Shown here piece after piece: positions 13,209 to 29,004 of a stretch of DNA of 64,000 bases. The notes under the pieces are model-generated. The model was not told the DNA's origin. It saw only the letters and a list, made by a program, of their open reading frames with translations, and made no database searches. This stretch comes from an uncultured Micavibrio sp. (lineage in GTDB: Bacteria; Pseudomonadota; Alphaproteobacteria; Micavibrionales; Micavibrionaceae). The stretch spans positions 2,220,656 through 2,284,655 of the forward strand of contig OZ253663.1 of assembly GCA_965263215.1 (NCBI GenBank), given 5' to 3'. How positions within the stretch are numbered: the stretch's first letter is position 1; each line of letters begins with the position of its first letter. The position numbers and the translations under genes are program-made.

Positions 13209-13284
13209 GGCGGTGTAGCTCAGGGGTTAGAGCAGTGGAATCATAATCCATGTGTCGGGTGTTCAAATCACCCCACCGCTACCA
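13209..13284 (+). tRNA. tRNA-Met (anticodon CAT), elongator-like; tRNA-Ile2(CAU, lysidine) not excluded
   Basis: Hand-folded 76-nt cloverleaf. Acceptor GGCGGTG/CACCGCT, D arm GCTC/GAGC, anticodon arm GTGGA-ATCATAA-TCCAT, T arm GGGTG-TTCAAAT-CACCC, with an encoded CCA. Confidence 0.9.
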
Positions 13285-13307
13285 ATATTTTCATTTAAAA
13301 TCATACC
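13239..13307 (+). repeat. attL core: 69-bp direct repeat (tRNA anticodon loop to CCA plus 23 nt)
   Basis: Identical base for base to 36674-36742. Confidence 0.9.
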
Positions 13308-13350
13308 CTTATAGAGGCTTTCTTCTAAGAGCTAAATCACAAAAACACTT

Positions 13351-13371
13351 TGGGGTATCACTGGGGTAACA
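13351..13371 (+). repeat. arm-type-site-like tandem heptamer TGGGGTA-N4-TGGGGTA (copy 1, inside the island near attL)
   Basis: TGGGGTATCACTGGGGTAACA. The 21 nt are identical to 36523-36543, and a diverged third copy sits at 36784-36804. Confidence 0.6.
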
Positions 13372-13477
13372 AACTCGATTTTAAAGACAAAGTAATTACG
13401 TTTGACTAGCCGTCTAAAAATATAGTGGAGCATAAACCATTTGACAGAGATCAAGCCCACCCTCCACTAACAGAGTT

Positions 13478-13517
13478 TTACTTACATTTGCCAAGGATAT
13501 CCTTGTCTTGTAAGTAA
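13478..13517. promoter_or_regulatory. nested palindrome upstream of the HARE-HTH gene (candidate operator)
   Basis: TTACTTACA (13478-13486) pairs with TGTAAGTAA (13509-13517). These arms enclose the perfect 14-bp palindrome CAAGGATATCCTTG (13492-13505). Confidence 0.4.
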
Positions 13518-13571
13518 CATCCTAATAGTATTTTAAACAATCTAAATTTTATAGTTGTTTTGGGGTTAGAC

Positions 13572-14513
13572 GTGAGCGCTTATTTAGAAGCTGCAGAAAA
13601 AGTCTTGGAAACTACTGGTGTTCCTATGAACTCCATAGAAATTTTACGAGCAGCTCACAGTATGAATCTGCTTTCACCTGACCTATACGGCAAAACACAA
13701 CATAAAACTTTTCACGCTAGAATAAGCGTGGATATAAGAAAAAACGGCGATAAAAGCGCTTTTTACAGAGTTGCTCACGGTGTTTTTTTTCTAAAAAAAC
13801 TAAAAGACTCTCCGCATCTATCAAAAAAGCAACAAAAAGGGATACATGCCATTCCTCGCAAAAGAGAGCTTAACAGAGAACCCGTGCTAAAAATCAAGAA
13901 AAGTATTATCAACAGCCTAGTATCCAAGAAAGGGATTTTCGACGCTAATGAATTAGAAACAATACTATCTTACAAAAATACTCAGTACGGAAATGCCAAA
14001 AATTCAAATGAACAGTATTGCAAACTTTGGGTTTTTGTTGTTGTGCAAAAGCAAGAAGAAATTTTGACATACAGACAGGGCAAGTATAGAGAAAACAAAG
14101 ATAGTTTTCTGAATAGAAGAACTATTGGTTTCAAAACGCTCGTTACAGCAAACGATAAAACTTTCTTAGACAAAGAAGACTGGGGAATCATATATTCAGG
14201 TTTGTCAGCTACATTTTCTGATCTTGGCGTGCCTTTTGATAGCATCATCATTGATGATGAAAAAACAAGCGCCAAAATCGAGTTTTTTTTATGTTATAGA
14301 GGTGAAACTGGCAATGATGAATTAGTTTGTGTTGTTAACTATGCCTGCCCCAACTGGCTTGAGCCACATAAACGCACGCTAGCTATCAATGACTTGTGTT
14401 GGCTTAAGACCACACACCTACCCAACAATATCGATGATTTTGACGGATGGTCAAAGATTATTATCCCTGAGCTATTTTCTATCTGTTCACCAAAATCAAC
14501 AGCGAGTACATAA
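13572..14513 (+). CDS. HARE-HTH (winged-helix) domain protein with an uncharacterised ~200-aa C-terminal domain
   Basis: The N-terminus SAYLEAAEKVLETTGVPMNSIEILRAAHSMNLL...TFHARISVDIRKNGDKSAFYRVAHGVFFL matches the HARE-HTH pattern. I prefer the GTG at 13572 (GGGG 6 nt upstream); the track ORF starts at a TTG at 13560. The C-terminal domain is not recognised. Confidence 0.7.
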   Translation: MSAYLEAAEKVLETTGVPMNSIEILRAAHSMNLLSPDLYGKTQHKTFHARISVDIRKNGDKSAFYRVAHGVFFLKKLKDSPHLSKKQQKGIHAIPRKRELNREPVLKIKKSIINSLVSKKGIFDANELETILSYKNTQYGNAKNSNEQYCKLWVFVVVQKQEEILTYRQGKYRENKDSFLNRRTIGFKTLVTANDKTFLDKEDWGIIYSGLSATFSDLGVPFDSIIIDDEKTSAKIEFFLCYRGETGNDELVCVVNYACPNWLEPHKRTLAINDLCWLKTTHLPNNIDDFDGWSKIIIPELFSICSPKSTAST

Positions 14514-15961
14514 TGGCGTTTCTTCATTATTTAAAAGAAAAGTATTTGCTACACATGATATCATCTGGGTCTGCTGAACAATGTGAGGAAGCAATGGAAA
14601 ACTTCTGCTCCTTAATGCGAGCAGGCCATCAAATTAGAAATCCTAAGCTTATGGGGAGAGCGTTGGTAGGACGCTTATTTAGTCCTTCTGAAAGAATAAG
14701 CAGATGGTCATTAAATGCAATAGCCCACATTGGTCGCAGAGCCGGAAGAGAATTTATCAACGCTGTCCAAAGAAGTGTTCTTCAACATATCGAACACCCT
14801 TTTATGTTGAGGTATGCTATCGCTGCATTATTTGCTGTCATGCAAAATGATGATGAAGTTTTCGAATGGCTGAACACAAATAAGGTACCACTCGAAGTCT
14901 CCGCAATCTTAGCGTCAGCCCCTTTCAGTCAAAAATGTAGAGAAAATATCAATAAATTAGGGATTAACATTGAATCAGCAGATAACCTAACTCTTCAAAA
15001 TGCTTCAATCCTTGTTGGGGTTGGCGAGATGCCCGAAGGAATTTTCTCAGGAAAACATCCTTACAATACGAATATTGGACAACTAAACAAACACGATGAT
15101 AATTTAGTCAGACAATATTCTATATGGGCAGTCAAAGAGAACCCTGATCTTTCTGTCACAGACTTAACATTCAATTTATGGGACATAGATAGCCTTGCAC
15201 ATGACGAAAAAAAATGGGCTTATCCAACAATAGCTGTGGACAAAGAATGTGCTAGCAAATATCGGGATATTTTAGAAGCGGGTAGCAATGACAATCACGT
15301 AGACGTAAGAAAAAAATTAGCCAGCGGACTTTTAAACACTTATTATATTGATATTGAAAGACTTACTTTTGACTGGTATGCAAATGAAGATGACCCTGAG
15401 ATTGTACTACGTTTGTTAGAACATATGGCTAGTCAATCTGATAAGTCTAACGATTATAAGCAAACTGCCCTAGATCGTTTTACTGCACTAGGAAAAGGGT
15501 CTATTGAAAGAGATCGGTTACAAAGTGCTGCTGCAAGGACAACTCTTTTTGGGGATATGCAAGACATTGTTCTTATGCCAGACCCAACATTTTTTGTAAC
15601 GAAGTTAACAGGAGAACCAACAGTGACCTACAACAACATCAATGAAATAAACATAGAAGGTGGAAATAGCGGCGATATCTCTGTTGCCCAAAGTAATATA
15701 GGCTCTGCACGCAATACAGTTAACGATATTGAGAATATCGAATTGAAAGAAATTCTAAGAGAATTGCTAGACGAAATAGATAAAAACAACCTTTCTGAAG
15801 ATAGTGAACTATTAGAAAACATTGAATGTTTAGCAAAACAACCCAACAAAACTACTGCTAAAAAAGTTTTAGAATATTTAAAAGCATATACCACTATAGC
15901 CAACATCCCCTTAGTCACAGCCAAGTTAACTGAGTGGGCAAACAACCTTTTAGGCGGATAA
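14513..15961 (+). CDS. HEAT/ARM-like helical-repeat protein
   Basis: 482 aa. The ATG overlaps the upstream stop (TAATG), which indicates translational coupling. It has repeated helical units with HEAT-type signatures (NLVRQYSIWAV, HVDVRKKLASGL) and an Asn/Glu-rich C-terminal tail. Confidence 0.7.
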   Translation: MAFLHYLKEKYLLHMISSGSAEQCEEAMENFCSLMRAGHQIRNPKLMGRALVGRLFSPSERISRWSLNAIAHIGRRAGREFINAVQRSVLQHIEHPFMLRYAIAALFAVMQNDDEVFEWLNTNKVPLEVSAILASAPFSQKCRENINKLGINIESADNLTLQNASILVGVGEMPEGIFSGKHPYNTNIGQLNKHDDNLVRQYSIWAVKENPDLSVTDLTFNLWDIDSLAHDEKKWAYPTIAVDKECASKYRDILEAGSNDNHVDVRKKLASGLLNTYYIDIERLTFDWYANEDDPEIVLRLLEHMASQSDKSNDYKQTALDRFTALGKGSIERDRLQSAAARTTLFGDMQDIVLMPDPTFFVTKLTGEPTVTYNNINEINIEGGNSGDISVAQSNIGSARNTVNDIENIELKEILRELLDEIDKNNLSEDSELLENIECLAKQPNKTTAKKVLEYLKAYTTIANIPLVTAKLTEWANNLLGG

Positions 15962-15983
15962 AGGCCACATGTAAGACTATTCT

Positions 15984-16092
15984 CAATATTAGCGTTTTGT
16001 CTCAAAATTAGCGTAACGCTAATAATAAAAACGGTTTGATATAAATGGGTAATTTCAATATTAGCGTAAAAAATGTGTATATATACGCTGAT
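15984..16092. repeat. ATTAGCGT iteron / palindrome array
   Basis: CAATATTAGCGT at 15984-15995 and again at 16056-16067 (identical 12-mers). A 17-nt palindrome ATTAGCGT-A-ACGCTAAT at 16007-16023. An imperfect inverted half-site ACGCTGAT at 16085-16092. Confidence 0.6.
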
Positions 16093-16122
16093 TCAAACCT
16101 TTTTGTTTAAAAGGCTATGTTT

Positions 16123-16551
16123 TCAATAGCCGTTACAAAGCGGGATCGTACCGTGCTTAGTAATATACTCCCAGATCAGCTTGCGTTCGGCGTAAAAAAT
16201 AAAAGAATTCAGATAACGCTCATCTACAAATACAGGAGCAAAGCCCGCAGCATAAACATTAGTAAGATCGTCACCTAGCTTTCGATTAAAACGATTACCA
16301 CCACTATGTTTGTGTTTCATATTGCCAACGCGTGCAGCCTTAAAGAATGTGGTAAGGCGTTTATGAATGTCCTGCGACTTGCCATGTGTCTCACCAATGT
16401 AAATAATTTCTCGCGCGTTATGATCAGCTGCTCCATCCGGCTTTTGGTCGAAGCGCGCAATAATATAAAGACCTGTGCGTTTTCCGTGCGGAATACTTCT
16501 CACGTCATCCCATGCATACCAATCAGAAAAAACTATGTCCGGTGTGATCAA
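16123..16551 (-). CDS. GIY-YIG nuclease superfamily protein (small, stand-alone)
   Basis: 142 aa. Motifs are GLYII...IIYIGET (GIY...YIG), then a downstream Arg (KRL), then YAERKLIWEY...LCN (conserved Glu and Asn). TTG start with GGGAG 6 nt upstream. Confidence 0.6.
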   Translation of the reverse strand: MITPDIVFSDWYAWDDVRSIPHGKRTGLYIIARFDQKPDGAADHNAREIIYIGETHGKSQDIHKRLTTFFKAARVGNMKHKHSGGNRFNRKLGDDLTNVYAAGFAPVFVDERYLNSFIFYAERKLIWEYITKHGTIPLCNGY

Positions 16552-16559
16552 ATGAAACT

Positions 16560-16760
16560 CCCGCGCGGTGCGCCCCCGCTTAACTTGACTGGTAGTCGGG
16601 GAGTTTACAAATCGCTAGACGATCCCTGTGATTTTAGCCGCGAAGCCTGTTGTATAGCACAAGCTCCCCGACCATAGGTCAAGGATGCATCATTCCGGCT
16701 GATGCTCACCGCTAGCGAGGTTGTAAAGCCCCAAAGCCGTTGCGTATCGGCCTCACAAAC
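16560..16760. other. GC-rich, stem-rich non-coding patch (candidate structured RNA or foreign DNA remnant)
   Basis: No ORF of 60 aa or more on either strand. Much more GC-rich than the surrounding island. A 9-bp stem GTCGGGGAG (16606-16614) / CTCCCCGAC (16665-16673) encloses a GCGAAGC mini-hairpin. A further stem is GCATCA/TGATGC. Confidence 0.3.
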
Positions 16761-16953
16761 AAGGATAGATCGATTTGGTCATAAATGGAAGATGTAACGC
16801 TCTCAAACCAGTCGTAATTTTCAATTTGAGAGCCGCAGGCAGCATTGTAATTTCATAGTATGGGATTTGTTTGTTTTAAGAGTACATGAGAGCCTACGCC
16901 CTTAAATCACTGCAATCAGTTTTCATAGGTGAAACATAATGCTCTAAATATGC

Positions 16954-16966
16954 CGTTTTGTTACCC
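16954..16966 (-). repeat. inverted partial copy of the arm-type motif (GGGTAACAAAACG)
   Basis: The reverse complement of 16954-16966 equals 36797-36809 (13 of 13 nt). Confidence 0.45.
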
Positions 16967-17132
16967 GTGGCGTACCCGAACACTGCGTATGATATTAAAA
17001 CCGCAATTAAAACAACGCGCCCATCACTTACTTGGCAAGATTAATAGTCCTTGTATCGGTCTTCTAGGTTTTCCGTGAGATACCACATCACCTGTCTTAA
17101 TGTCTGTTTGTAAATTAACAAAGGAGACTGAT

Positions 17133-17363
17133 ATGACTAAACCAACCGAAACAACAACGCTCAAGGAATTATGTAAATAGCGCAAACTCTGCCCGCGTGT
17201 GTCGCGCATGTTACTGCGAGAAGCGGTAAAGGATGAAAAGAAGCATCCGAACCTAGCCAAACATCACAAGCCCCGTACAGCATGGATATGGTCGGAAGGT
17301 TCAAAGGCATTAGAAGAAGCATTGATAGTACTTAAGCCCCAAACACCGAAAAAAACAGTATAG
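17133..17363 (+). pseudogene. small ORF interrupted by an in-frame TAG (codon 16)
   Basis: Strong RBS (AAAGGAG-N6-ATG). Reads MTKPTETTTLKELCK-TAG(17178-17180)-RKLCPRVSRMLLREAVKDEKKHPNLAKHHKPRTAWIWSEGSKALEEALIVLKPQTPKKTV. The same frame stays open for 60 further codons in AT-rich DNA. Confidence 0.45.
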
Positions 17364-17371
17364 ACAAAATA

Positions 17372-17413
17372 AGTCGTGTCAAAATTAAGTGTACGAATAA
17401 TTATGACACGACT
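17372..17413. terminator. hairpin between convergent genes (candidate bidirectional terminator)
   Basis: AGTCGTGTCA (17372-17381) pairs with TGACACGACT (17404-17413): a 10-bp perfect stem with a 22-nt AT-rich loop. It sits between the 17133-17363 ORF and the primase stop. Confidence 0.45.
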
Positions 17414-17420
17414 AAATATA

Positions 17421-19211
17421 TTATATTAAAGACCACTTGGCGTTTGGCCCTTTTGCATCCGCTTGTGCTATTTCTTTCAAATTACGATGCAAAGTGCTTT
17501 TACTGACATTTATGCTGCGCGCACTGATAGCCCTTTGAATGGCCGAAGACGACATGGGACCGTCATATAACAGTTCGGTGAGTATTTCCATCAGGTTTGG
17601 TTCAGAGTTAGGCCGCCCTACTCTCTGCACAGGATCAAGTCCGTCCGCATCGTAATCAGCAACAGCTAACCACTTTAACTCTGGGTGCTCCGTCTTAGAA
17701 CCACCGACCAATTCAAACAAAAGTGTGTTTCCAAGTTCCGACCAATTGCTTTTCACATGCGCAAACCCTGAAACATTAGGATCATCCTTCGAACGACCAA
17801 TGTGCAATACTGATCGAGCACGTGCAACGAAACCGATAGAACCAAGGCCTTTGTTCAGAGCATGTTCACCGCCAGATTTAGCCATATGCCGAACACCGAT
17901 CACGCATATATTATGTTCTCGTGCTAATTCATCAATTTGCGTTAAAAATTCAGTAACCTCATTGAAGCGATTAGAATCTACACCGCCCCCCATGTAAGTA
18001 AGCAACGGATCAATGATAATAACATCAGGCTTAAAGCTATGAATTTTTGCTTCGAGCGTTTGAATGCCTTCCTGCGTCAATGGTTTAAACCGCCCCTGAA
18101 AATGAATAATGTTCGGTGATAAATTTGCACCTGCTTTTTCAAGACGCGGACGCATTGTTTTCGCAGGGTCATCTTCTGCGTTCAATATCAACACGCGCCC
18201 TTTTGGCAGCCTGTCTTTACTAAACGGTAATTTACCCCCTCTGGAACAAAGTGCAGCAAGGAACATTGTAAAATAAGACTTTCCTCTGCCCGGATGTCCG
18301 TCTAAAAAAACAATGCACCCTCGCGGTAAATAGGGATACCAATACCAATCAACTGACTCCGTCTTGATTTTTGACATATCTAAGAAATCATCATTGGCAG
18401 CTTCATCATAACGTGAACTGCTTTTTAAAATTGTGGCCACTTCTTTTTTAGTCAATGGTGGAACACATAACTCATCATTGATATTAAGCAAAACCGCTTT
18501 ACTTGCCTTTGTCGAGATAGACTGCCTTCTTAATGAACAAGCAACTTTAAACAGAGACTCATTTCTTTCACCATCAGAAAATACATGCTTACCCTTAGGC
18601 TCAAAATTAATCGTGACTGTGCGTTTTGAGGCTAAGCTATTATGCACCTCACTTGGTAAAGCTTGTGCTTGTGTTGATGAACCAACCCAAGTATATCGAA
18701 CACCACTGACATGACGACTTGGTGGAAGGATAATATATCCACCCTTACCACCACCCTTGATATCAAAACCTGACATCGCATTGTTTTGGGATTTCAAGTC
18801 AGCAAGCACATAAAGGTGGAAACCTTTTCCAGTTTCAACCTTAAGCGTATTTAATCCCTTTAAGCCTAGCTTATTGCTTGATCTGAGCCCTTGTGTTCCA
18901 TCAAAATCGAGAGCCACCAGACCAGGAACGAGCGGACTAGCTATGTTGGCTTCTGGATACTTTCTCCACCAATCCTTGACTTGCCTTAAATCTGTTGTTG
19001 CAGCCTTAAAGCCTTCCTTCGTGATAGGATGTTTCCCTTGGTTTTTACATCCGTTATTGCCACACAAACATTTCAAATCATCATCAATGCCGAACACCGG
19101 AAATATAGGAATGCCTGTCTTGGCATATGCCAATGCCACTTTCTTTTTATTTTTTGATTTCATCACCTTAGCCAGTTCAAATTTTTTCATTAACTTAGGC
19201 ATTGTCAGCAC
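17421..19211 (-). CDS. bifunctional Prim-Pol primase / RecA-like (AAA_25) replicative ATPase with a C-terminal HTH (P4 alpha-like)
   Basis: 596 aa. The N-terminus GIPIFPV...CKNQGKHPITKEGFKAATTDLRQVKDWW...ANIASP...LDFD is the Prim-Pol pattern. Walker A is GHPGRGKS and Walker B is VIIIDPL. The C-terminus has an HTH-like segment, SKSTLHRNLKEI. Confidence 0.85.
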   Translation of the reverse strand: MLTMPKLMKKFELAKVMKSKNKKKVALAYAKTGIPIFPVFGIDDDLKCLCGNNGCKNQGKHPITKEGFKAATTDLRQVKDWWRKYPEANIASPLVPGLVALDFDGTQGLRSSNKLGLKGLNTLKVETGKGFHLYVLADLKSQNNAMSGFDIKGGGKGGYIILPPSRHVSGVRYTWVGSSTQAQALPSEVHNSLASKRTVTINFEPKGKHVFSDGERNESLFKVACSLRRQSISTKASKAVLLNINDELCVPPLTKKEVATILKSSSRYDEAANDDFLDMSKIKTESVDWYWYPYLPRGCIVFLDGHPGRGKSYFTMFLAALCSRGGKLPFSKDRLPKGRVLILNAEDDPAKTMRPRLEKAGANLSPNIIHFQGRFKPLTQEGIQTLEAKIHSFKPDVIIIDPLLTYMGGGVDSNRFNEVTEFLTQIDELAREHNICVIGVRHMAKSGGEHALNKGLGSIGFVARARSVLHIGRSKDDPNVSGFAHVKSNWSELGNTLLFELVGGSKTEHPELKWLAVADYDADGLDPVQRVGRPNSEPNLMEILTELLYDGPMSSSAIQRAISARSINVSKSTLHRNLKEIAQADAKGPNAKWSLI

Positions 19212-19416
19212 CTCCGCGTTTTGCAGATTGCTGCGCTATCCAAGCTTCTATTTCGTCAGCGAGCCAGAATACTTTTTGTGGTGAAATTCTTACTCTTTTG
19301 GGGAACATCCCGTCAGCTTCTAAACGAAGTTGGTGGGAATTACTATAATTTAGACCAAGTTCAACTAAATTATCTTGCGACAATAGAATCTTACTTATTT
19401 CAGCGTTGTCACTCAT
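19195..19416 (-). CDS. alpA: AlpA-family transcriptional regulator / excisionase
   Basis: MSDNAEISKILLSQDNLVELGLNYSNSHQLRLEADGMFPKRVRISPQKVFWLADEIEAWI. The ATG at comp. 19414-19416 is preceded by AAGGAGAAAACG. Confidence 0.8.
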   Translation of the reverse strand: MSDNAEISKILLSQDNLVELGLNYSNSHQLRLEADGMFPKRVRISPQKVFWLADEIEAWIAQQSAKRGGADNA

Positions 19417-19519
19417 CGTTTTCTCCTTATTTAAGTGAATAGAAAACGACGATATAAAGTGGAGCATTAGGTGTCACTTAAGGTAAAAATAATAGAATTT
19501 TACCGTACCTAAAAAATTA

Positions 19520-20170
19520 CTAATTTGATGTTTTTAACATCTCTTTTTTTAAGTTATAGAATTTAGAAACCGCTTTTTCGACCTCTCTTAAGCTTGGTGT
19601 GCTGTTTTCATTTCCTGGGTTGGTCTTACCCATATTTTGTTTGCCCTTCATTTTTTCTGCTACATGTTTTGCAATAAGCCTAATTGACCAATCCTTTTTA
19701 TCTGGATCGTATAGGCACTTTTGAATTTCCAAATGAATATTTTCCCAATCCCACTTTGGCATCCTTCCCTCATGCTTAGGAATTTCTAAAAAATTCTCTT
19801 CTTCATGTATTTCACATTTTAACCAACCATGATTTTTATCATGATCAAAAATTAAGTACGAGCCTGGGATATAAATATCTTCTATTTCAACATCGACAGA
19901 AAGACGCTTTGAATCCGTTTCCATATGTTCGTAATATCGAACTTCAAAATCCGTACCATTTTTAATCATGTGAAGCATCTTATCTTTGACATCACGAGCA
20001 AGCTTAAACAAATTCGAGTCTTTGTTTATACGATACGGATCATTGTCCGCAACATAACCGGGAACTCTGTTTTCAATTACCAAGCAGCCAATGGCGTCAA
20101 AATGCCACGACTCCCTATATTCCTTGCGGCCTATCTGATCAAATATTTCTGCTAACGTGTAAATTTTCAT
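19520..20170 (-). CDS. hypothetical protein (island backbone)
   Basis: 216-aa ORF between int and alpA. It overlaps the int stop by 32 nt. No domain recognised. Confidence 0.6.
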   Translation of the reverse strand: MKIYTLAEIFDQIGRKEYRESWHFDAIGCLVIENRVPGYVADNDPYRINKDSNLFKLARDVKDKMLHMIKNGTDFEVRYYEHMETDSKRLSVDVEIEDIYIPGSYLIFDHDKNHGWLKCEIHEEENFLEIPKHEGRMPKWDWENIHLEIQKCLYDPDKKDWSIRLIAKHVAEKMKGKQNMGKTNPGNENSTPSLREVEKAVSKFYNLKKEMLKTSN

Positions 20171-21305
20171 TATTTAATTTTTCCATTACATACGTAGCCC
20201 ATTTATTCAGAGCATCGCGTTTTTCTCGATCATAACCATATTGATTATATACTGCCACTACCCCTGAAATTGTTCCAGAAACATGATTAAGAATTTTTTC
20301 AATGACATGCGGCGGCACATCTAAACTCGCCATTCCTGACACTGCTGTGCGCCTTAAATCATGTATACGCCAACCATTTACACCTGTTGCTGCATCAATG
20401 CGCTGTTTAATTTTACTATGCCCTGATACTGGCGTATTACCTGTCGTTGTAAACACAAAATCAGAGTGAAGAAATCGTGGAACAGATTGTAGGATTTTTA
20501 TGGCCTCATCTGATAAAGGCACCATGTGTGCTTTACCATTCTTTGCACGCTCTTTGGGAATTGTCCAAACCTTGTTTTTAAAATCCAATTCGTCCCATCG
20601 CATACCAGAAACTTCACCGCGTCTTTGTGCAGTAAGAATAAGGATCAAAAACAACGAACCAAATGGGTAAGATAAGTTTTGACATTCTGACCATACTTTA
20701 AAAAGTTCATCACCCGTTAAAACACGATCTCGTGGATTTTCTTTTGCTGGTTTTTTAACGCCATGACATGGACTGAATTCAAGGTAATCACGCTCAACAC
20801 ACCAATTCATAAATTTACTAAGTGCTGAGTGAACTCTATTGGCCTGTGTTGGAGTACCATCTGCCACCAACATATCAAGATGCGCTATTAAATCACGGCG
20901 TTTAATGTCAGTGAGTTTTACATTTCCGTACCTGACAATAAACTTCTTCATACGAGAATTTGAAATTCGCCAATCTTTATTCCTTATTTTAGCGTATAGC
21001 TCAAGGAACAAATCATAAGCTTCTTCAACAGTTAAGTCCCTTTCAGGTTCAAGTGCCCCATCTGCAGCCATACGCATTTTCTCTTGTGCCAAGTTACGAG
21101 CATCAGCCAAAGATAATGTAGGGTATTTTCCAAGTGTAATGCGCTGCGTTTTATTGTGCATACGAAAACGCACAAAAAATGACTTTATACCGTTTGTTGT
21201 TACACGTAGTCCAAAGCCTGATAGCACGGTATCACAATATTCCATGCGTCGTGTTTCTGATTTTACAGTTTCAACAAATTTACTGGTGAGCTTCTTCTGT
21301 GCCAT
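20139..21305 (-). CDS. int: tyrosine-type site-specific integrase, P4-like (DUF4102 arm-binding N-terminus)
   Basis: 388 aa. N-terminus: LTSKFVETVK...GFGLRVTTNGIKSFFVRFR...LGKYPTLSLADAR. Catalytic region: TAQRRGEV...HDLRRT...H...Y, ending in YGYDREKRDALNKWA. Confidence 0.92.
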   Translation of the reverse strand: MAQKKLTSKFVETVKSETRRMEYCDTVLSGFGLRVTTNGIKSFFVRFRMHNKTQRITLGKYPTLSLADARNLAQEKMRMAADGALEPERDLTVEEAYDLFLELYAKIRNKDWRISNSRMKKFIVRYGNVKLTDIKRRDLIAHLDMLVADGTPTQANRVHSALSKFMNWCVERDYLEFSPCHGVKKPAKENPRDRVLTGDELFKVWSECQNLSYPFGSLFLILILTAQRRGEVSGMRWDELDFKNKVWTIPKERAKNGKAHMVPLSDEAIKILQSVPRFLHSDFVFTTTGNTPVSGHSKIKQRIDAATGVNGWRIHDLRRTAVSGMASLDVPPHVIEKILNHVSGTISGVVAVYNQYGYDREKRDALNKWATYVMEKLNNENLHVSRNI

Positions 21306-21489: not shown

Positions 21490-23226
21490 TTAAAAAGGAG
21501 TAAGGTTATTTAGTATACCGCCTTGCAAGCATCTAAACGGGGTGTAATGAGATTTGTATGTTTTAGGATGGCTATACACACAAAGTTCATCATTTAGTAT
21601 TTCCCTTTCTAATTTATACCATTCTGGGAGGCCAAGCTTATGATTGGCTAAGGATATGTACATATGAATTCTGCCCTGAGGGCTTTGAACTTTTTCTATC
21701 AATGACTCTGCTAAAGTATAATTACCAAGATCCATTAAAAAATGGATCGCATAAGTAATAACAATGTCTTTATCATATTGATCCAAGAGTAAATCTTTTA
21801 GCTTATCTTCGAGTTCGCCATTACCTGTCAATTTGGAATAGCCGACAAGCGCACCCCATGCATACCAAAAATCATATGCTCTGTTATATGCTTCATTGGA
21901 CCTAGTATAAAAATTATCTCTCTGAGTTTCTATCGTTTTCAGAACTTCTAAAACGGTTTGCGTGTCTCCAGTTACTTTTAGGTAGGCTGGAAGAGCTGCA
22001 TTTAAATAGTTTACGGACCATCGATTGGGGGCGTTTTGCAGTTTGTTTTTAAGAAAATACATATCGTATGCATGTATCCCTAGGAACTTTGTTATCAAGC
22101 CTTTTAGGAGCAATGTTGCTTGCTGTGTTTCTCCGTATTTGTGATATGCGAGGCCAATAAGGATAAGACCATAATTTACATTATGATTTTGTAGTGTTTC
22201 TCTTAAATCCCTTAACTTCTCTAGTCTTTTATCAGGAGCTAATTCATCAATTTTTTGTAATTTTATTTTTATAAATTGAACATCATCCATAAAACCATAA
22301 ACTGACTGCTGTTCTAAAGCACTCATATCTTGATTTTTTGGGGAGGCTATCATGGTGTTATAATTCCCTGTTTTAGGATTTCTCTCCGCGTATTTTACTG
22401 CTAGCCTTCTAAGGAGTACGTCTCTGGCTCTTGGTGGTGTGATTTTGTTTATTGTCTTATTGGATTTTTCGAGTAAACCAGCATCTATTTCATTTTTTGC
22501 AATAAGCGTTAATGGGCAAACTTTATTATCCTCTCGTTTTATAAAGTGGGCAATGGTTTGAGCCTTGAAGAAATAACTTTGTGCTAGCTCATGCTTTCCA
22601 GATTTATATAAAGTGGACGCTATTATGCTTTTTATCGCAGCATCGTAGCATCTATCTCTGTCAGTCATACTATATGAAGGGTAGTATAGTTTTAGAACAT
22701 TTTCGGCATCTTCAACTTGGTCACATAACGTGTACGCCTGTATTATTTTTTTGCTGGCTACACTGGTATATAAATTGCGTTCTAGAGTTTTCGTCGTTTC
22801 TAGGAATTCCTTATTTTTAGCTTGCTCGATGTGCGCGAGGGCTTGCTCGCATTGATTAGTTTCCGCAAAGTGTTTTGCTAAAATAGCATGAATTTTTGAA
22901 CTCCATATAGGATCATTCACTTTCTCTACAATTGACAACGCTAAGCTGGGATCTTTTGATGCATATAAGGTGATAGAGGCAAGATGTGAACCGGAAAAAT
23001 CTCTATTTTCTTCAAATTTAAAATTATTATCCTGTAGCTTATCAGTCTCACTGAGAGCTTTCATGTACAAATATTTTACATCTTCAAATGTATATGCAGC
23101 ACCTTTGTCGGCGAATGCATGATTGAATATAGGTGCTAAAAATGACATCAAAAATAATGTGAATGAGAAGAGATGTGTTTTTGTCACATAAGAGCTCCTA
23201 AATTTCGTAATTTCACTATCAAACAT
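21490..23226 (-). CDS. secreted TPR-like helical-repeat protein
   Basis: 578 aa with an N-terminal hydrophobic signal (LFSFTLFLMSFLAPIFNHAFA) and a repetitive helical Ala/Tyr/Leu pattern. Confidence 0.65.
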   Translation of the reverse strand: MFDSEITKFRSSYVTKTHLFSFTLFLMSFLAPIFNHAFADKGAAYTFEDVKYLYMKALSETDKLQDNNFKFEENRDFSGSHLASITLYASKDPSLALSIVEKVNDPIWSSKIHAILAKHFAETNQCEQALAHIEQAKNKEFLETTKTLERNLYTSVASKKIIQAYTLCDQVEDAENVLKLYYPSYSMTDRDRCYDAAIKSIIASTLYKSGKHELAQSYFFKAQTIAHFIKREDNKVCPLTLIAKNEIDAGLLEKSNKTINKITPPRARDVLLRRLAVKYAERNPKTGNYNTMIASPKNQDMSALEQQSVYGFMDDVQFIKIKLQKIDELAPDKRLEKLRDLRETLQNHNVNYGLILIGLAYHKYGETQQATLLLKGLITKFLGIHAYDMYFLKNKLQNAPNRWSVNYLNAALPAYLKVTGDTQTVLEVLKTIETQRDNFYTRSNEAYNRAYDFWYAWGALVGYSKLTGNGELEDKLKDLLLDQYDKDIVITYAIHFLMDLGNYTLAESLIEKVQSPQGRIHMYISLANHKLGLPEWYKLEREILNDELCVYSHPKTYKSHYTPFRCLQGGILNNLTPF

Positions 23227-23251
23227 GATTTTTCATACTTTGCCTTATCAC

Positions 23252-25402: not shown

Positions 25403-25417
25403 TATCACTTAACTCCC

Positions 25418-25939
25418 CTACTTTTCTAGTAGTCTACGAATGACGGATTTGTTTTTTTTATACTCTAGAGCCTCTTGTGTCTCTGCTAGTAACTTTTCCA
25501 AGTTTTTAATAGTAATTTTTTTAGAGCATTCTCCAACTTTTTCTCCAACTTTATATTGCCAATACTTAATAAGAATGGTGCTTTTGTTTAAAGCATTCTC
25601 GGACAGACAAAAGTATGATGAAGCTTGATCTGGGTTTGGGCCACCGAATGATTTTATAATTTCTAAATCAGTTGCAAATCCATTACCATCACTAAAGTTA
25701 CCCGTTAGCGTTATCGTTGTTGAGTTAGTTGGGCCAATATTCCGATGGTAAGTAATAAACATGTCTATACAATGATCATGTTTATTATCAACTAACTTAC
25801 CTACTTGCACTCCTGGATGCGGTACCTCTTCACAAGCGTGTGAAGGCTTAAGTGCTAAGATTACTGCCAAGAAGGAAGTACAAATCACAAAAATAGTCAG
25901 GTGCCTAACAATAGCTAATTTTTTAACCTCATTTTCCAT
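25418..25939 (-). CDS. hypothetical secreted protein
   Basis: 173-aa ORF with a signal-like N-terminus (LTIFVICTSFLAVILA). The start ATG lies inside the conserved GTGATAA..AGTATGGAAAA motif. Confidence 0.6.
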   Translation of the reverse strand: MENEVKKLAIVRHLTIFVICTSFLAVILALKPSHACEEVPHPGVQVGKLVDNKHDHCIDMFITYHRNIGPTNSTTITLTGNFSDGNGFATDLEIIKSFGGPNPDQASSYFCLSENALNKSTILIKYWQYKVGEKVGECSKKITIKNLEKLLAETQEALEYKKNKSVIRRLLEK

Positions 25940-25978
25940 ACTTCGTAATTATCACTATATATCTTTTTCTTATAGACA

Positions 25979-26656
25979 TCATATAGCGTCCCTTATCTTC
26001 TTGTTATCTAGATACTCCAAAGCCTTACTTTGGGTCTCTTCTGCTATGTCTTGTTTGTCCACTCCTCTTAGAATTTCAATCAAGCGACAAACTGAATTAG
26101 CATAGCTTTCTTCTGAGTATTCCTTATGTTCATCATTATTAAAATTAGGATTAGTTCTCATCAATCTCATATTTGCTCTGTGCAAGTATTGAATTTCTGC
26201 CAATTTTTCATCAGGATCAGGAATATATTTATCACAAATTTCAAATTCCTTCATTTCAACGAGCAGAGGTTCTGTAACGTGATAGGCCTGTGCAGCTTGT
26301 TCAGGATAGTTTTTATGTATCTTAATGAAAACTGAAGCAGTATCATTGTCTTCTTCTAATACTTGGTTTATCGCGAAAAAGTCGTGAAAGATATCAAAGT
26401 GACCTTTCCCTGCTAGAAGTTTCTCCCGATTACTATCCCTGAGATCAATTAGAGCCTCCAGAGCTAGAGGATATTGTTCTGCCAATTTTCTCCATAAACC
26501 TAATGCAAATGATAATCTAACGCCGCCCATTCCACTCATCTCTCTGGATGCCTCATGAAACCAAATATGCTTTTCAAGAGCTTCTTTGTATTTACCGGCT
26601 TTATACAAATCTGATAATTCACTAATTACATTTAAATTAGAGTTTTCTTTACTCAT
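25979..26656 (-). CDS. hypothetical helical protein
   Basis: 225-aa ORF with no domain recognised. A 9-codon upstream mini-ORF carrying the conserved 5' motif precedes it. Confidence 0.6.
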   Translation of the reverse strand: MSKENSNLNVISELSDLYKAGKYKEALEKHIWFHEASREMSGMGGVRLSFALGLWRKLAEQYPLALEALIDLRDSNREKLLAGKGHFDIFHDFFAINQVLEEDNDTASVFIKIHKNYPEQAAQAYHVTEPLLVEMKEFEICDKYIPDPDEKLAEIQYLHRANMRLMRTNPNFNNDEHKEYSEESYANSVCRLIEILRGVDKQDIAEETQSKALEYLDNKKIRDAI

Positions 26657-26702
26657 ATCTATTACAAGTTTGCTTCATTTTCATACTGTTCGTTATCACT
26701 TC

Positions 26703-28541: not shown

Positions 28542-28648
28542 GAATAATGTGCGATATAAGCACAATAAAAAAGGGTTTATATAGTACTCAACCTATTCCA
28601 CAATCACTAGGAAATCAATAACACAGCTTTATTCCTAAATATCAACAA

Positions 28649-28897
28649 TCACTCCCTGCCCCGATCTTTTCCATCATCTGGACTTATCTCAATTTCTTGC
28701 TTCGTCCGTTCAATATAGGCTTCTTTTCTCTCTTCCTTAGATAATGACTTGTCATTCTCCGGTAGGTCTTCATAAGACTGCTTTTCGGTTTCCTGTTCTT
28801 GTGTCTTCTGCGCGGGCTCTTTCTCGCGTTCTTTTTGCATACAATCTAAATAAGCGGTAGTGTCGCAAACGTTGGTTCCAGTTCCTCGTCTAGCCAT
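28649..28897 (-). CDS. hypothetical highly charged small protein (weak call)
   Basis: 82-aa ORF, Glu/Lys-rich, with no clear RBS. Its 5' end is bracketed by a 14-bp inverted repeat. Confidence 0.35.
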   Translation of the reverse strand: MARRGTGTNVCDTTAYLDCMQKEREKEPAQKTQEQETEKQSYEDLPENDKSLSKEERKEAYIERTKQEIEISPDDGKDRGRE

Positions 28898-29004
28898 TGA
28901 TGGTATGCTGTTCGAACTTGATGCGATTGCTGTCCTAGGGGAATAAACTTTGCGACACTACCTGCTCATCCTTATTTTGAAAAAAGAGTTGTTTGAGACA
29001 CGAC

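What the first reader, a model, noticed from the sequence alone, without database searches (positions are those of the whole stretch)
13478..16551. Uncharacterised HARE-HTH + HEAT-repeat gene pair (plus a small GIY-YIG nuclease) at the attL end of a satellite-like island: candidate novel conflict or defence system
Two genes are translationally coupled by a TAATG overlap at 14511-14515.
- The first is a 313-317-aa protein. Its N-terminus fits the HARE-HTH winged-helix pattern, and its ~200-aa C-terminal domain matches nothing I can name.
- The second is a 482-aa HEAT/ARM-like repeat protein with an Asn/Glu-rich tail.

They are followed, convergently, by a stand-alone 142-aa GIY-YIG nuclease. 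The block sits between the att site and the replication/integration module of a P4-like element. Variable regions of phage satellites and integrative islands are known to hold anti-phage systems. DNA-binding sensor, repeat scaffold and small nuclease is a plausible sensor/effector architecture. I do not recognise this combination as any named system.
Basis: inference. Interest (0 to 1): 0.72.

Follow-up and report, generated by a model that had tools for sequence, protein, structure and literature searches.

The report
Unnamed sensor–effector gene pair on island
Two overlapping genes at the tRNA-proximal end of a genomic island are a real, conserved pair found mainly in Alphaproteobacteria: a DNA-binding protein with a degenerate Nudix domain, plus a helical-repeat protein whose end is swapped among relatives for a caspase-like protease, a nucleosidase or a small helical bundle, which is the pattern of an undescribed anti-phage or conflict system.

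Summary
The two genes are real and overlap in TAATG.

- **geneA** (13572-14513, 313 aa) has an N-terminal HARE-HTH. Its "unknown" C-terminal domain is a TM1382-type Nudix fold whose catalytic REx2EE motif is lost.
- **geneB** (14513-15961, 482 aa) has three parts: a ~355-aa ARM/HEAT-like solenoid, a disordered Gly/Asn-rich linker, and a ~75-aa four-helix bundle.

In 59 of 75 related genomic loci a geneB homologue follows geneA directly, often with a 4-nt overlap. The same holds in all 8 viral-collection contigs and on an Agrobacterium Ti plasmid. No third gene is conserved.

The solenoid is constant but the C-terminal module varies:
- helical tail, as in the window: ~33 of 51;
- CHAT caspase-like protease with an intact His/Cys dyad: 14;
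- PNP_UDP_1 nucleosidase: 3.

The pair sits on int/AlpA/primase islands, conjugative plasmids and prophage-like contigs. On pTiCFBP5877 it lies among TIR, caspase and CHAT genes.

PADLOC, Pfam and NCBIfam have no model for the pair, and I found no paper describing it.

The 142-aa ORF is not a conserved partner, and its GIY-YIG assignment has no statistical support.

Verdict: a credible new candidate conflict or defence system. Its function and mechanism are inferred, not shown.

The parts
13209..13284 (+). tRNA-Met (CAT), the integration target of the island
   Evidence: ARAGORN
13236..13316 (+). Left copy of the 81-nt direct repeat (attL): the 3' 49 nt of tRNA-Met plus 32 nt downstream
   Evidence: the repeat finder family D1, 95% identical to 36671-36751. 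The 24-nt core is exact at both sites, with 0 matches expected by chance.
13572..14513 (+). geneA, 313 aa (GTG start; an in-frame TTG lies at 13560): HARE-HTH plus a degenerate Nudix-fold protein, the proposed sensor/regulator
   Evidence: ORF. Start supported by the alignment of 16 homologues. The identical 313-aa protein is in public collections.
13584..13796 (+). HARE-HTH winged-helix domain of geneA, with the invariant GKTQHKT motif
   Evidence: Pfam PF05066, E 6.4e-9, above the gathering cut-off. Invariant columns. AlphaFold pLDDT about 80-93.
14016..14486 (+). TM1382-type Nudix-fold domain of geneA. The Nudix box is degenerate: SATFSDL stands where relatives have REVNEE or RELQEE. The C-terminal motif is DDFDxWS.
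   Evidence: Foldseek against PDB: top hit 3e57 (TM1382), E 4.4e-7, TM 0.71, followed by RppH, NudC and YfcD. Foldseek against BFVD: top hits are phage NUDIX proteins. hhalign to the phage protein L100:3800-4459: probability 90%. That phage protein matches TM1382 by sequence at E 1.8e-8. The Pfam NUDIX model does not hit.
14511..14515 (+). TAATG stop/start overlap coupling geneA and geneB
   Evidence: Sequence read directly. Overlaps of 1-4 nt or more recur in homologous loci.
14513..15961 (+). geneB, 482 aa: scaffold plus C-terminal module, the proposed effector subunit
   Evidence: ORF. Homologues found. Directly downstream of geneA in 59 of 75 genomic loci.
14513..15577 (+). ARM/HEAT-like alpha-solenoid (residues 1-355), the constant part of geneB
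   Evidence: AlphaFold pLDDT about 90. Foldseek hits to designed armadillo proteins and importin-alpha at E about 1e-6, with low TM scores. Conserved in 54 neighbouring ORFs by phmmer. Pfam HEAT_2 hits in homologues.
15581..15718 (+). Gly/Asn-rich linker, predicted disordered (residues 357-402)
   Evidence: pLDDT 23-46. The consensus N..N..G..Q.GA...GG.A.N.G is shared by the type I tails.
15719..15949 (+). C-terminal four-helix bundle (residues 403-479), the window's variant of the exchangeable module
   Evidence: AlphaFold helices 403-424, 431-442, 446-457 and 465-479, pLDDT 70-82. 18 of 31 such tails match the C-terminus of PADLOC candidate PDC-M14B, best E 2e-5. The window tail matches at 7.6e-5.
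15978..16067 (.). Cluster of ATTAGCGT-containing 18-nt repeats, including the palindrome ATTAGCGTAACGCTAAT, in the geneB/142-aa intergenic region. Function unknown.
   Evidence: the repeat finder family D8. Sequence.
16123..16551 (-). 142-aa ORF: a neighbour or island-backbone gene, not a conserved partner. The GIY-YIG assignment is unverified.
   Evidence: No family hit. The only homologue found is in L016, 75% identical. Absent from the other loci.
17421..19211 (-). Island replication gene: Prim-Pol + PriCT_1 + AAA_25/DnaB-like helicase + HTH
   Evidence: Pfam; PHROGs
19195..19467 (-). AlpA-family regulator/excisionase
   Evidence: Pfam PF05930, E 3.7e-7
20139..21305 (-). Tyrosine integrase with an Arm-DNA-bind_3 N-terminal domain (P4 type)
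   Evidence: Pfam
36671..36751 (+). Right copy of the 81-nt direct repeat (attR), marking the far end of the 23.4-kb island

Best explanation
geneA and geneB form a self-contained, horizontally mobile two-gene conflict system. It is most likely an anti-phage or anti-MGE abortive-infection module.

**geneA, the constant sensor/regulator.** Its HARE-HTH binds nucleic acid. Its TM1382-type Nudix domain has lost the catalytic REx2EE residues, so it probably binds rather than hydrolyses a nucleoside-diphosphate-X ligand or a capped or modified nucleic-acid end.

**geneB, made in fixed ratio through translational coupling.** It uses its conserved ARM/HEAT solenoid to dock on geneA or on a target. 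It carries the output module at its C-terminus.

**Outputs in relatives.** The output is a CHAT caspase-like protease or a PNP_UDP_1 nucleosidase. Both are known cell-suicide or immune effectors.

**Output in the window.** It is the commonest variant: a Gly/Asn-rich flexible segment plus a four-helix bundle. I infer this acts non-enzymatically, by oligomerisation, membrane perturbation or target sequestration.

**Shown:** domain identities, conserved adjacency and coupling, exchange of the C-terminal module, and carriage on mobile elements.

**Inferred:** the A-B physical interaction, the ligand or trigger, the activity of the tail, and any protective phenotype.
For: **Conserved pairing**
- geneB follows geneA directly in 59 of 75 GTDB loci.
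- It also does so in 8 of 8 IMG/VR loci and on pTiCFBP5877, and in metagenomic contigs.
- The genes overlap in the window and in many homologues.
- No third gene is conserved. After A (70 loci) and B (51), the next cluster reaches only 9 loci.

**Modular output on a constant scaffold**
- About 33 helical tails, 14 CHAT and 3 PNP_UDP_1 among 51 complete geneB copies.
- The CHAT His/Cys dyad (HFSGHG / NaC.S) is conserved in 14 of 14.
- A divergent geneA clade is linked instead to an operon of HD phosphohydrolase, P-loop kinase and a PNP_UDP_1 protein. The nucleotide-targeting theme therefore follows geneA.

**Sensor-like geneA**
- HARE-HTH.
- Nudix fold with only D203 and D217 left of the acidic Nudix-box residues. 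Homologous phage and TM1382 proteins keep RELQEE and REVNEE.

**Mobility and patchy distribution**
- tRNA-Met island with int, AlpA and primase in the window.
- The same island type in L005-L008 and in L016 at the same tRNA-Met/mnmA site, with the cassette inverted.
- 9 plasmid records, 6 of them conjugative.
- A serine recombinase directly upstream in several loci.
- An IS-disrupted copy and several frameshifted copies.
- Only 75 loci among 185,579 species genomes, almost all Alphaproteobacteria.

**Conflict-gene company in some loci**
- On pTiCFBP5877 the pair lies among TIR, caspase, CHAT, S8 peptidase and metallophosphoesterase genes.
- In L011 it is next to an MmeI-like type IIG RM gene.
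- The tail resembles the C-terminus of PADLOC candidate PDC-M14B.
Against: - There is no experimental evidence of protection or toxicity for any member.
- Immediate neighbours across about 50 loci are mostly unrelated or housekeeping genes. Only a handful match PADLOC models (mad3 x3, UvrD/GajB-like, RtcR, RT-helicase). Some of these are probably generic ATPase or helicase hits, so defence-island enrichment is weak.
- The window's own geneB has no recognisable enzymatic effector. Its last helix is not a convincing transmembrane segment: Kyte-Doolittle maximum 0.89 in the window, and above 1.6 in only 3 of 34 tails.
- A homologue 63% identical to geneA (L004) occurs without geneB, so geneA can exist alone.
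- The A-B interaction was not modelled.
- HARE-HTH domains also occur in non-defence proteins such as the RNA polymerase delta subunit (established knowledge).
Confidence: 0.6

Rival explanations
1. The pair is a toxin-antitoxin-like addiction or stabilisation module of mobile elements. geneA is a DNA-binding autorepressor and antitoxin that holds the toxic geneB (protease, nucleosidase or helical toxin) in check. Loss of the element releases geneB. Any anti-phage effect would be secondary.
For: - Two small overlapping genes with the HTH protein first.
- Carriage on islands and conjugative plasmids.
- Frequent solitary insertion among housekeeping genes, without other defence genes.
- Decayed and IS-disrupted geneB copies with geneA retained, as expected if B is the toxic partner.
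Against: - At 313 and 482 aa, both proteins are far larger and more elaborate than typical type II TA pairs.
- geneA carries a conserved ligand-binding-type domain that an antitoxin would not need.
- No operator-like inverted repeat was identified upstream of geneA.
- TA-like behaviour and abortive-infection roles are not mutually exclusive.
Confidence: 0.2
2. geneA is the island's own regulator, a Stl- or CI-like master repressor that senses a helper phage or a metabolite. geneB is an accessory scaffold. On this view the pair controls island excision and replication rather than killing or defence.
For: - Position at the att-proximal end of int/AlpA/primase islands in three independent island lineages: the window, L016 and L005-L008.
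- An HTH plus ligand-sensing architecture like the NrtR-type regulators (established knowledge).
Against: - Most copies are not on such islands. They sit among unrelated chromosomal genes or on large plasmids.
- The cassette is inverted relative to the island backbone between the window and L016.
- Fusion of the partner to a CHAT protease or a PNP nucleosidase is not what an excision regulator needs.
Confidence: 0.08
3. The pair has a housekeeping or stress-signalling role. It would be a nucleotide-responsive transcription factor with a scaffold protein, unrelated to genetic conflict.
For: - Many neighbours are housekeeping genes.
- NCBI annotation gives only 'winged helix-turn-helix domain-containing protein'.
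- The window's geneB has no enzymatic domain.
Against: - Extremely patchy distribution: 75 of 185,579 species genomes.
- Presence on plasmids, islands and prophage-like contigs.
- Pseudogenised copies.
- Exchange of effector-type modules.
- No conserved metabolic neighbour.
Confidence: 0.07

Closest known systems
Modular 'constant component + exchangeable effector' conflict systems described by comparative genomics (e.g. the EACC1-caspase two-gene system and the EAD-coupled systems of Kaur et al. 2020, PMC7159879)
   Same: - A two-gene layout with one constant component.
- A second protein whose effector position is filled alternately by a caspase-superfamily peptidase, a PNPase-superfamily domain or non-enzymatic helical or repeat modules (read).
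- HEAT repeats and PNPase, caspase and Nudix domains are all listed there as parts of such systems.
   Different: - The constant component here is a cytoplasmic HARE-HTH + degenerate Nudix protein. It is not a TM-helix EACC1, a vWA-MoxR pair, a STAND NTPase or a GTPase.
- There is no NTPase at all.
- The distribution is alphaproteobacterial rather than in multicellular actinobacteria or cyanobacteria.
- None of the Pfam models for those systems hit.
PADLOC candidate system PDC-M14 (protein B)
   Same: The roughly 100-aa C-terminal helical tail of the window's geneB matches the C-terminal region of PDC-M14B models, as do 18 of 31 related tails. Window E 7.6e-5; best E 2e-5.
   Different: - Only the tail matches.
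- The 365-aa solenoid of geneB and all of geneA have no PADLOC hit.
- The scores are weak.
- I found no paper on PDC-M14. The match therefore says the tail is a shared module, not that this is PDC-M14.
NrtR-type Nudix-related transcriptional regulators (established knowledge, not tested here)
   Same: Both combine a winged-helix DNA-binding domain with a Nudix-fold domain that has lost catalytic residues and serves as a ligand (ADP-ribose) sensor.
   Different: - The domain order is reversed: NrtR has the Nudix domain N-terminal and the wHTH C-terminal.
- The winged helix is of a different type (HARE-HTH).
- The Nudix subfamily is different (TM1382-like, with a C-terminal DDFDxWS motif).
- NrtR controls NAD metabolism genes and is not paired with protease or nucleosidase proteins.
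Caspase-like and PNP-domain immune effectors: type IV Thoeris TIR + caspase-like protease (bioRxiv 10.1101/2024.10.24.620036, abstract seen), and the ATP-nucleosidase PNP effectors of CBASS and Detocs (established knowledge)
   Same: - Relatives of geneB end in a CHAT caspase-like protease with an intact dyad, or in a PNP_UDP_1 domain.
- On pTiCFBP5877 the pair lies next to TIR + caspase gene pairs.
   Different: - No TIR, cyclase or other signal-producing enzyme is part of the pair.
- The effector is fused to a HEAT solenoid and partnered with a HARE-HTH/Nudix protein.
- The window's copy has neither enzymatic effector.
HARE-HTH-nuclease fusions in restriction and Dnd/BREX-associated genes (PMC10853773, PMC12839542)
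   Same: A HARE-HTH domain is used in a conflict context, where it is proposed to discriminate modified DNA.
   Different: There the HARE-HTH is fused to a PD-(D/E)xK nuclease. Here it is fused to a degenerate Nudix domain, and no nuclease is conserved with it.

Membership tests
HARE-HTH (Pfam PF05066) | Match to the family HMM above the curated gathering score | tested here: met
   geneA residues 9-79, E 6.4e-9, 36.5 bits against a cut-off of 25.9. The same domain is precomputed for 15 of 17 homologues.
Nudix superfamily | Nudix alpha/beta/alpha sandwich fold | tested here: met
   The AlphaFold model (pLDDT 80) gives Foldseek hits to TM1382, RppH, NudC, YfcD and NUDT22 at E 4e-7 to 1e-3, and to phage NUDIX proteins.
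Nudix superfamily | Nudix box GX5EX7REUXEEXGU with the metal-binding glutamates | tested here: not met
   On the Nudix helix the window has S212-A-T-F-S-D217-L-G-V and the family consensus is A...DLG.P. Only D203 and D217 are invariant acidic residues. The homologous phage protein and TM1382 keep RELQEE and REVNEE. The register was set by eye from these alignments.
Nudix superfamily | Match to a Pfam NUDIX model | tested here: not met
   No NUDIX hit for full-length geneA or for its C-terminal 173 aa, even at E<=5.
TM1382-like Nudix subfamily (PDB 3e57) | Sequence-level link and shared C-terminal (E/D)xWSxI motif | tested here: met
   The link is indirect. The geneA profile matches the phage protein L100:3800-4459 with hhalign probability 90%, E 1.6e-6. 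That phage protein matches TM1382 by phmmer at E 1.8e-8, with EGWSQI aligned to EGWSKI. geneA has DGWSKI. The direct geneA profile against PDB sequences finds nothing.
HEAT/ARM alpha-solenoid repeats | Stacked helical-hairpin solenoid fold | tested here: met
   Model pLDDT is about 90 over residues 1-355. Foldseek hits to designed armadillo proteins and importin-alpha at E 1e-6 to 1e-4, though TM is only 0.2-0.35. Pfam HEAT_2 hits a homologue (L030) at E 1.4e-6. The window protein has no Pfam hit.
CHAT / caspase-like protease | CHAT domain with a His-Cys catalytic dyad | tested here: not met
   The window's geneB has no CHAT domain. 14 homologous geneB proteins do, with HFSGHG and NaC.S conserved.
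PNP_UDP_1 nucleosidase effectors | PF01048 domain | tested here: not met
   Absent from the window's geneB. Present at the C-terminus of P0020, P0021 and the L030 homologue.
GIY-YIG nuclease (the 142-aa ORF) | Match to a GIY-YIG family model or to a solved GIY-YIG structure | tested here: not met
   No hit in Pfam, NCBIfam, PADLOC or PHROGs or against PDB sequences, as a single sequence or a two-sequence profile, at E<=10.
GIY-YIG nuclease (the 142-aa ORF) | GIY...YIG motifs about 10-11 residues apart, followed by conserved Arg, Glu and Asn | tested here: inconclusive
   By eye: GLY(26-28), YIG(50-52), KRL(63-65), E121RKLIWEY, N139. These are conserved in the L016 homologue. However, the GLY-YIG spacing is about 21 residues and there is no statistical support.
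PADLOC PDC-M14 | Both system proteins match the PDC-M14 A and B models over most of their length | tested here: not met
   geneA has no hit. geneB matches only at residues 362-477, aligned to the last ~100 positions of PDC-M14B, E 7e-4 to 8e-5.
P4-like satellite / integrative element | P4-type tyrosine integrase, AlpA-type regulator and primase-helicase next to a tRNA att site with a direct repeat | tested here: met
   Pfam hits. tRNA-Met. 81-nt direct repeats 23.4 kb apart.
P4-like satellite / integrative element | Helper-exploitation genes (capsid size redirection, psu/sid/delta-like, cos site) | tested here: inconclusive
   The Pfam scans of the island ORFs that I tested show ankyrin, TPR, LuxR/LuxI, PhyH and DUF3857 but no phage morphogenesis domains. 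Several ORFs have no hit, and not all were scanned.

The most novel reading that the evidence does not exclude
This is the founding example of an undescribed anti-phage immune family. A catalytically dead TM1382-type Nudix domain fused to a HARE-HTH acts as the receptor. Its ligand would be a phage-derived or infection-induced nucleotide, or a capped or modified nucleic-acid end. Active homologues of this Nudix domain are encoded by N4-like and jumbo phages. On activation it switches on a HEAT-scaffolded output: a caspase-like protease, an ATP/NAD-type nucleosidase, or a new non-enzymatic four-helix 'tail' effector shared with PDC-M14B.
Probability: 0.35. Interest if true: 0.75.

Novelty: new variant of a known kind. 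Interest (0 to 1): 0.62.

Why it matters
If the pair protects against phages or other mobile elements, it would add a defence family with several unusual features:

- **Sensor type.** A pseudo-enzyme Nudix domain coupled to a HARE-HTH, a type not yet seen in characterised systems.
- **Built-in comparison.** Three interchangeable outputs sit on one scaffold, which makes the activation logic experimentally tractable. The CHAT or PNP versions could serve as read-outs for the trigger.
- **A handle on the unknown module.** It would give a way into the unexplained helical tail that PADLOC's candidate PDC-M14B also carries.
- **A possible arms race.** Phage-encoded active homologues of the same Nudix subfamily suggest a conflict around one nucleotide ligand.

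It also documents defence-type cargo on int/AlpA/primase islands and Ti plasmids of Alphaproteobacteria. That group is under-sampled in defence-system screens.

Tried and rejected
**Database and literature searches that found nothing**
- PADLOC, NCBIfam and PHROGs scans of geneA and geneB gave nothing beyond the weak tail match.
- Literature searches found no description of the pair: 'PDC-M14'; HARE-HTH with Nudix and/or CHAT; HARE-HTH alone; Nudix/HEAT/CHAT/phage defense; TM1382; inactive Nudix. The original HARE-HTH paper (PMC3272235) is not held.

**Searches limited by the tools**
- The word-indexed homology search for geneB saturated on low-complexity words and returned only 5-6 proteins, even with a 31-sequence profile.
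- As a result the geneB structure had to be predicted from a 6-sequence alignment.

**GIY-YIG tests on the 142-aa ORF**
- PDB sequence searches, plasmid tblastn and an IMG/VR scan all returned nothing.

**Hypotheses tested and rejected**
- The 624/625-aa PNP proteins linked to the divergent geneA clade and to L069 do not share the geneB solenoid detectably.
- The tail is not a classical transmembrane segment by simple hydropathy in most members.
- The tail does not occur in other neighbouring proteins. It is found only in geneB and its fragments.
- EACC1/EAD membership is rejected. EACC1 is a TM-helix domain encoded 5' of a caspase protein, and no Pfam EAD models hit.

**Inconclusive or failed steps**
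- The promoter/terminator scan of 13250-17450 found no more sites than shuffled sequence gives, and no terminator.
- An exact look-up of P0001 to identify the source genome failed. The organism is inferred only as a probable alphaproteobacterium, from the nearest homologues and from shared tRNA-Met/mnmA synteny with L016.

Full report
**1. The observation**

The region holds two long, same-strand ORFs. geneA runs from 13560 (TTG) or 13572 (GTG) to 14513. geneB runs from 14513 to 15961. The sequence at 14511-14515 is TAATG, so the TAA stop of geneA shares one base with the ATG of geneB.

All 15 aligned homologues begin at the position of the GTG at 13572. The 313-aa form is the one stored in public collections. 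I therefore take 13572 as the start.

A convergent 142-aa ORF lies at 16123-16551. tRNA-Met is at 13209-13284. On the minus strand there is:
- a Prim-Pol/PriCT_1/AAA_25 primase-helicase at 17421-19211;
- an AlpA-family gene at 19195-19467;
- a 216-aa ORF;
- a tyrosine integrase with an Arm-DNA-bind_3 domain at 20139-21305.

The G+C content drops from about 45-50% to about 36-38% at the tRNA.

The last 49 nt of the tRNA plus 32 nt downstream (13236-13316) recur at 36671-36751 with 95% identity. The 24-nt core is exact at both places, with none expected by chance. The island is thus 23.4 kb, with the integrase in the middle. Its right half carries ankyrin-repeat, TPR, LuxR/LuxI, PhyH and DUF3857 genes. 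No phage-morphogenesis or capsid-redirecting gene was seen, so 'satellite-like' is not shown.

**2. What geneA is**

Pfam places a HARE-HTH at residues 9-79 (E 6.4e-9, above the curated cut-off).

An AlphaFold model built on 16 homologues has mean pLDDT 80. It shows that the C-terminal ~165 residues adopt a Nudix fold. The best PDB match is the uncharacterised T. maritima protein TM1382 (3e57; E 4.4e-7, TM 0.71 on the target). RppH, NudC, YfcD and NUDT22 follow. The best viral matches are phage NUDIX proteins.

A tblastn hit in an Acinetobacter N4-like phage led to a 220-aa phage protein. It aligns with the geneA profile (hhalign probability 90%, E 1.6e-6). By plain sequence search it also matches TM1382 (E 1.8e-8). 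All three share the strand-loop motif (ILxYxR...R...SIGFGGHV in the phage protein; ILTYRQGKYRENKDSFLNRRTIGF in geneA) and the C-terminal (E/D)GWSxI motif.

The phage protein and TM1382 keep the catalytic Nudix helix, RELQEE and REVNEE. geneA has SATFSDL there, and the family consensus is A...DLG.P. Only D203 and D217 are invariant acidic residues. Pfam's NUDIX model hits neither geneA nor its isolated C-terminal domain.

I conclude that geneA carries a TM1382-type Nudix domain that has lost canonical pyrophosphohydrolase chemistry. It nonetheless remains under strong constraint, with 53 invariant columns in the 16-sequence alignment. That is the signature of a ligand-binding pseudo-enzyme.

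**3. What geneB is**

An AlphaFold model from only six sequences still gave pLDDT of about 90 for residues 1-355. These form an alpha-solenoid that Foldseek matches to designed armadillo proteins and importin-alpha (E about 1e-6, low TM).

Residues 357-402 are Gly/Asn-rich and predicted disordered. Residues 403-479 form a four-helix bundle with pLDDT 70-82.

Pfam, NCBIfam and PHROGs give no significant hit. PADLOC gives only a weak match of the tail to the C-terminus of the candidate protein PDC-M14B. That match is reproduced by 18 of 31 related tails, best E 2e-5.

**4. Is the pair conserved?**

Yes.
- The word-indexed search found only 17 geneA relatives. The exhaustive profile search found 1145 at E<=1e-3 and 214 clusters at E<=1e-30.
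- A scan of one genome per species returned 75 loci, almost all Alphaproteobacteria.
- With profile HMMs of both proteins, 59 of the 75 loci have a geneB homologue starting within a few dozen bases of the end of geneA.

The exceptions are:
- four contig ends;
- two or three geneA fragments;
- one locus (L069) with a different PNP_UDP_1 protein in the geneB position;
- eight loci of a divergent geneA clade (about 25% identity).

All eight IMG/VR contigs that carry geneA also carry geneB. So does the Agrobacterium Ti plasmid pTiCFBP5877. In a Sulfitobacter plasmid geneB is cut by an ISL3 element.

Metagenomic contigs reached from either protein show the same adjacency. Their upstream genes were confirmed as geneA homologues by profile comparison.

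Overlapping stop/start codons recur.

Clustering all neighbouring ORFs shows no third conserved gene. After geneA (70 loci) and geneB (51), the next cluster is present in 9 loci. One homologue 63% identical to geneA (L004) stands alone next to an HTH_3 gene and a relaxase.

**5. The key finding: an exchangeable C-terminal module**

The roughly 365-aa solenoid is shared by all geneB proteins. What follows it falls into three classes among 51 complete copies:
- a ~120-aa Gly/Asn + helical tail, as in the window: 30, plus 3 divergent;
- a ~200-aa CHAT domain: 14;
- a ~315-aa PNP_UDP_1 domain: 3.

Pfam confirms CHAT and PNP_UDP_1. The caspase-type dyad (HFSGHG ... NaC.S) is conserved in all 14 CHAT tails.

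The divergent geneA clade is instead joined, tail to tail, to an operon. It encodes a YfbR-like HD phosphohydrolase, a P-loop nucleotide kinase (sometimes fused to the HD domain) and a 624-aa protein ending in PNP_UDP_1. The N-terminus of that protein is not detectably related to the geneB solenoid.

Proteases of the caspase superfamily and PNP-family nucleosidases are established suicide or immune effectors in bacteria. Examples are the TIR-activated caspase-like protease (bioRxiv 10.1101/2024.10.24.620036, seen), PNPase and caspase effector positions (PMC7159879), and the ATP nucleosidases of CBASS and Detocs (my own knowledge). A constant partner plus a scaffold with swappable effectors is the organisation typical of conflict systems.

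**6. Genomic context**

*Mobile elements*
- The window's island.
- The int/HTH_17/AlpA/AAA_25 island of L005-L008, where the pair is again distal cargo.
- L016, an alphaproteobacterial MAG in which the pair sits at the same tRNA-Met/mnmA site. Its order is int, primase, 142-aa homologue, A, B, tRNA. Relative to that backbone, the A-B cassette is inverted in the window.
- Nine plasmid records, six predicted conjugative.
- A serine recombinase immediately upstream in several loci.

*Company*
- On pTiCFBP5877 the pair is embedded among TIR, caspase, CHAT, S8 peptidase and metallophosphoesterase genes.
- In L011 it is next to an MmeI-like type IIG enzyme.

*A caution*
A census of 149 immediate neighbours across about 50 loci shows mostly unrelated, often housekeeping, genes. 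Few have PADLOC matches. The defence-island argument is therefore anecdotal, not statistical.

**7. The 142-aa ORF**

It has no hit in any family library. It has no hit against PDB sequences, even as a profile at E<=10. It has none in plasmids or IMG/VR.

Its only homologue in the fetched loci is in L016 (75% identity). There it lies upstream of and codirectional with geneA. It keeps the orientation of the primase gene while the A-B cassette is flipped.

It is therefore a neighbour or backbone gene of this particular island lineage, not a component of the system. The GIY-YIG idea rests on a by-eye motif pattern (GLY, YIGET, KRL, ERKLIWEY, PLCN) with an atypically long GIY-YIG spacer.

**8. Mechanism**

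*Most likely (about 0.6).* This is a two-gene conflict module.
- geneA is the sensor/regulator: HARE-HTH for nucleic acid, degenerate Nudix for a nucleotide-type ligand or a modified end.
- geneB is the effector subunit. It is held by its solenoid and made in fixed ratio through translational coupling.
- Activation releases or assembles the C-terminal module.

For the CHAT and PNP variants the outputs are proteolysis and nucleotide destruction. For the window's tail variant the output is unknown. I favour oligomerisation or membrane or target perturbation, for two reasons:
- the flexible Gly/Asn segment;
- the terminal helix rich in small residues.

Hydropathy does not support a classical TM helix in most members.

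*Shown:* domains, pairing, coupling, module exchange and mobility.

*Inferred:* the A-B contact, the ligand or trigger, the tail's activity and the phenotype.

*Rivals.*
- A TA-like addiction module (0.2). It is compatible with much of the evidence and does not exclude a defence role.
- An island master regulator (0.08). Against it: most copies are not on such islands.
- A housekeeping regulator (0.07). Against it: the patchy distribution, the pseudogenes and the effector swapping.

**9. Comparison with known systems, and novelty**

The logic resembles the constant-component/variable-effector systems catalogued by comparative genomics (PMC7159879). However, none of their defining components is present: EACC1 TM domain, vWA-MoxR, STAND, GTPases.
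- It is not PDC-M14, because only the tail matches.
- geneA works like an NrtR-type regulator (dead Nudix + winged helix). It has the reverse domain order, a different wHTH and a different Nudix subfamily.
- HARE-HTH is known in conflict contexts only as a nuclease fusion (PMC10853773, PMC12839542).
- PGAP names the proteins only 'winged helix-turn-helix domain-containing protein' and 'CHAT domain-containing protein'.
- I found no paper describing the pair. The library is incomplete, so prior description elsewhere cannot be excluded.

I rate it a new variant of a known kind: a modular sensor-effector conflict system built from a previously unreported combination.

**10. Verdict**

- the C-terminal domain of geneA is a degenerate Nudix fold;
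- the small ORF is not part of the system and not demonstrably a nuclease;
- the island is 23.4 kb and not shown to be a satellite.

Interest is 0.62. This is a solid, testable candidate for a new defence family, but it has no functional data and only weak defence-island enrichment.

Noticed in passing
L073, L076, L077, L078, L083, L084, L085, L087 (e.g. L073:8924-12337, minus strand): A divergent clade of geneA (about 25% identity, full length) is not followed by geneB. Instead it abuts, tail to tail, a conserved three-gene or fused two-gene operon. The operon encodes a YfbR-like HD phosphohydrolase, a P-loop nucleotide kinase and a ~624-aa protein ending in PNP_UDP_1. This looks like a second, nucleotide-centred system built around the same HARE-HTH/Nudix-like protein.
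   Followed up: partly
L100:3800-4459 (Acinetobacter phage vB_IME_Ab2712, OK149216.1): An N4-like phage encodes a 220-aa stand-alone homologue of geneA's Nudix-like domain. It keeps the catalytic RELQEE motif and matches TM1382 by sequence. Pseudomonas jumbo phages have structural relatives. Phages thus carry the active form of the domain that the bacterial protein uses in degenerate form.
   Followed up: partly
L098 (Agrobacterium tumefaciens pTiCFBP5877, NZ_CP039902.1 51701-66579): A dense cluster of conflict-type genes surrounds the pair on a Ti plasmid: three further CHAT proteins, an S8 peptidase, three TIR-domain proteins, a caspase-family protein directly next to a TIR gene, and a metallophosphoesterase.
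   Followed up: no
window 15978-16067: The geneB/142-aa intergenic region holds three 18-nt direct repeats (TATTCTCAATATTAGCGT and variants) and a perfect palindrome ATTAGCGTAACGCTAAT. That gives four ATTAGCGT half-sites within 90 nt, possibly a regulator or replication-protein binding array.
   Followed up: no
window 13351-13371, 36523-36543, 36784-36804: The 21-mer TGGGGTATCACTGGGGTAACA occurs just inside attL, just inside attR and (86% identical) just outside attR. These could be integrase arm-type sites or the trace of a tandem or earlier integration at the same tRNA-Met.
   Followed up: no
window 21490-36479 and 37092-45494: The right half of the island carries eukaryote-like repeat proteins (a 620-aa ankyrin + Kelch-like protein, a 578-aa TPR protein), a LuxR/LuxI quorum-sensing pair (29498-31101), a PhyH dioxygenase and an 886-aa DUF3857/transglutaminase-like protein. 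Low G+C continues about 9 kb beyond attR, across a hybrid histidine kinase, an MHYT sensor and a 1045-aa EF-hand protein. This suggests a further foreign segment and a host-associated lifestyle.
   Followed up: partly
L016:2019-10512 compared with window 13209-21305: A related alphaproteobacterial MAG has the same island type at the same tRNA-Met/mnmA site. The geneA-geneB cassette is inverted relative to the int-primase-142aa backbone, so the pair moves or flips as a unit.
   Followed up: partly
L035:7236-7883, L044:7000-7602, L055:7087-7710, L062:7283-7972: A serine recombinase (Resolvase + HTH_7) lies immediately upstream of and codirectional with geneA in several unrelated genomes. It is a possible vehicle for moving or inverting the cassette.
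   Followed up: no
L099:7923-9750 (Sulfitobacter plasmid NZ_CP136685.1); L017, L018, L025, L058, L059, L070, L082, L088: Several copies of geneB are truncated, frameshifted or interrupted (by ISL3 in the Sulfitobacter plasmid) while geneA stays intact. This is consistent with geneB being the costly or toxic partner.
   Followed up: no
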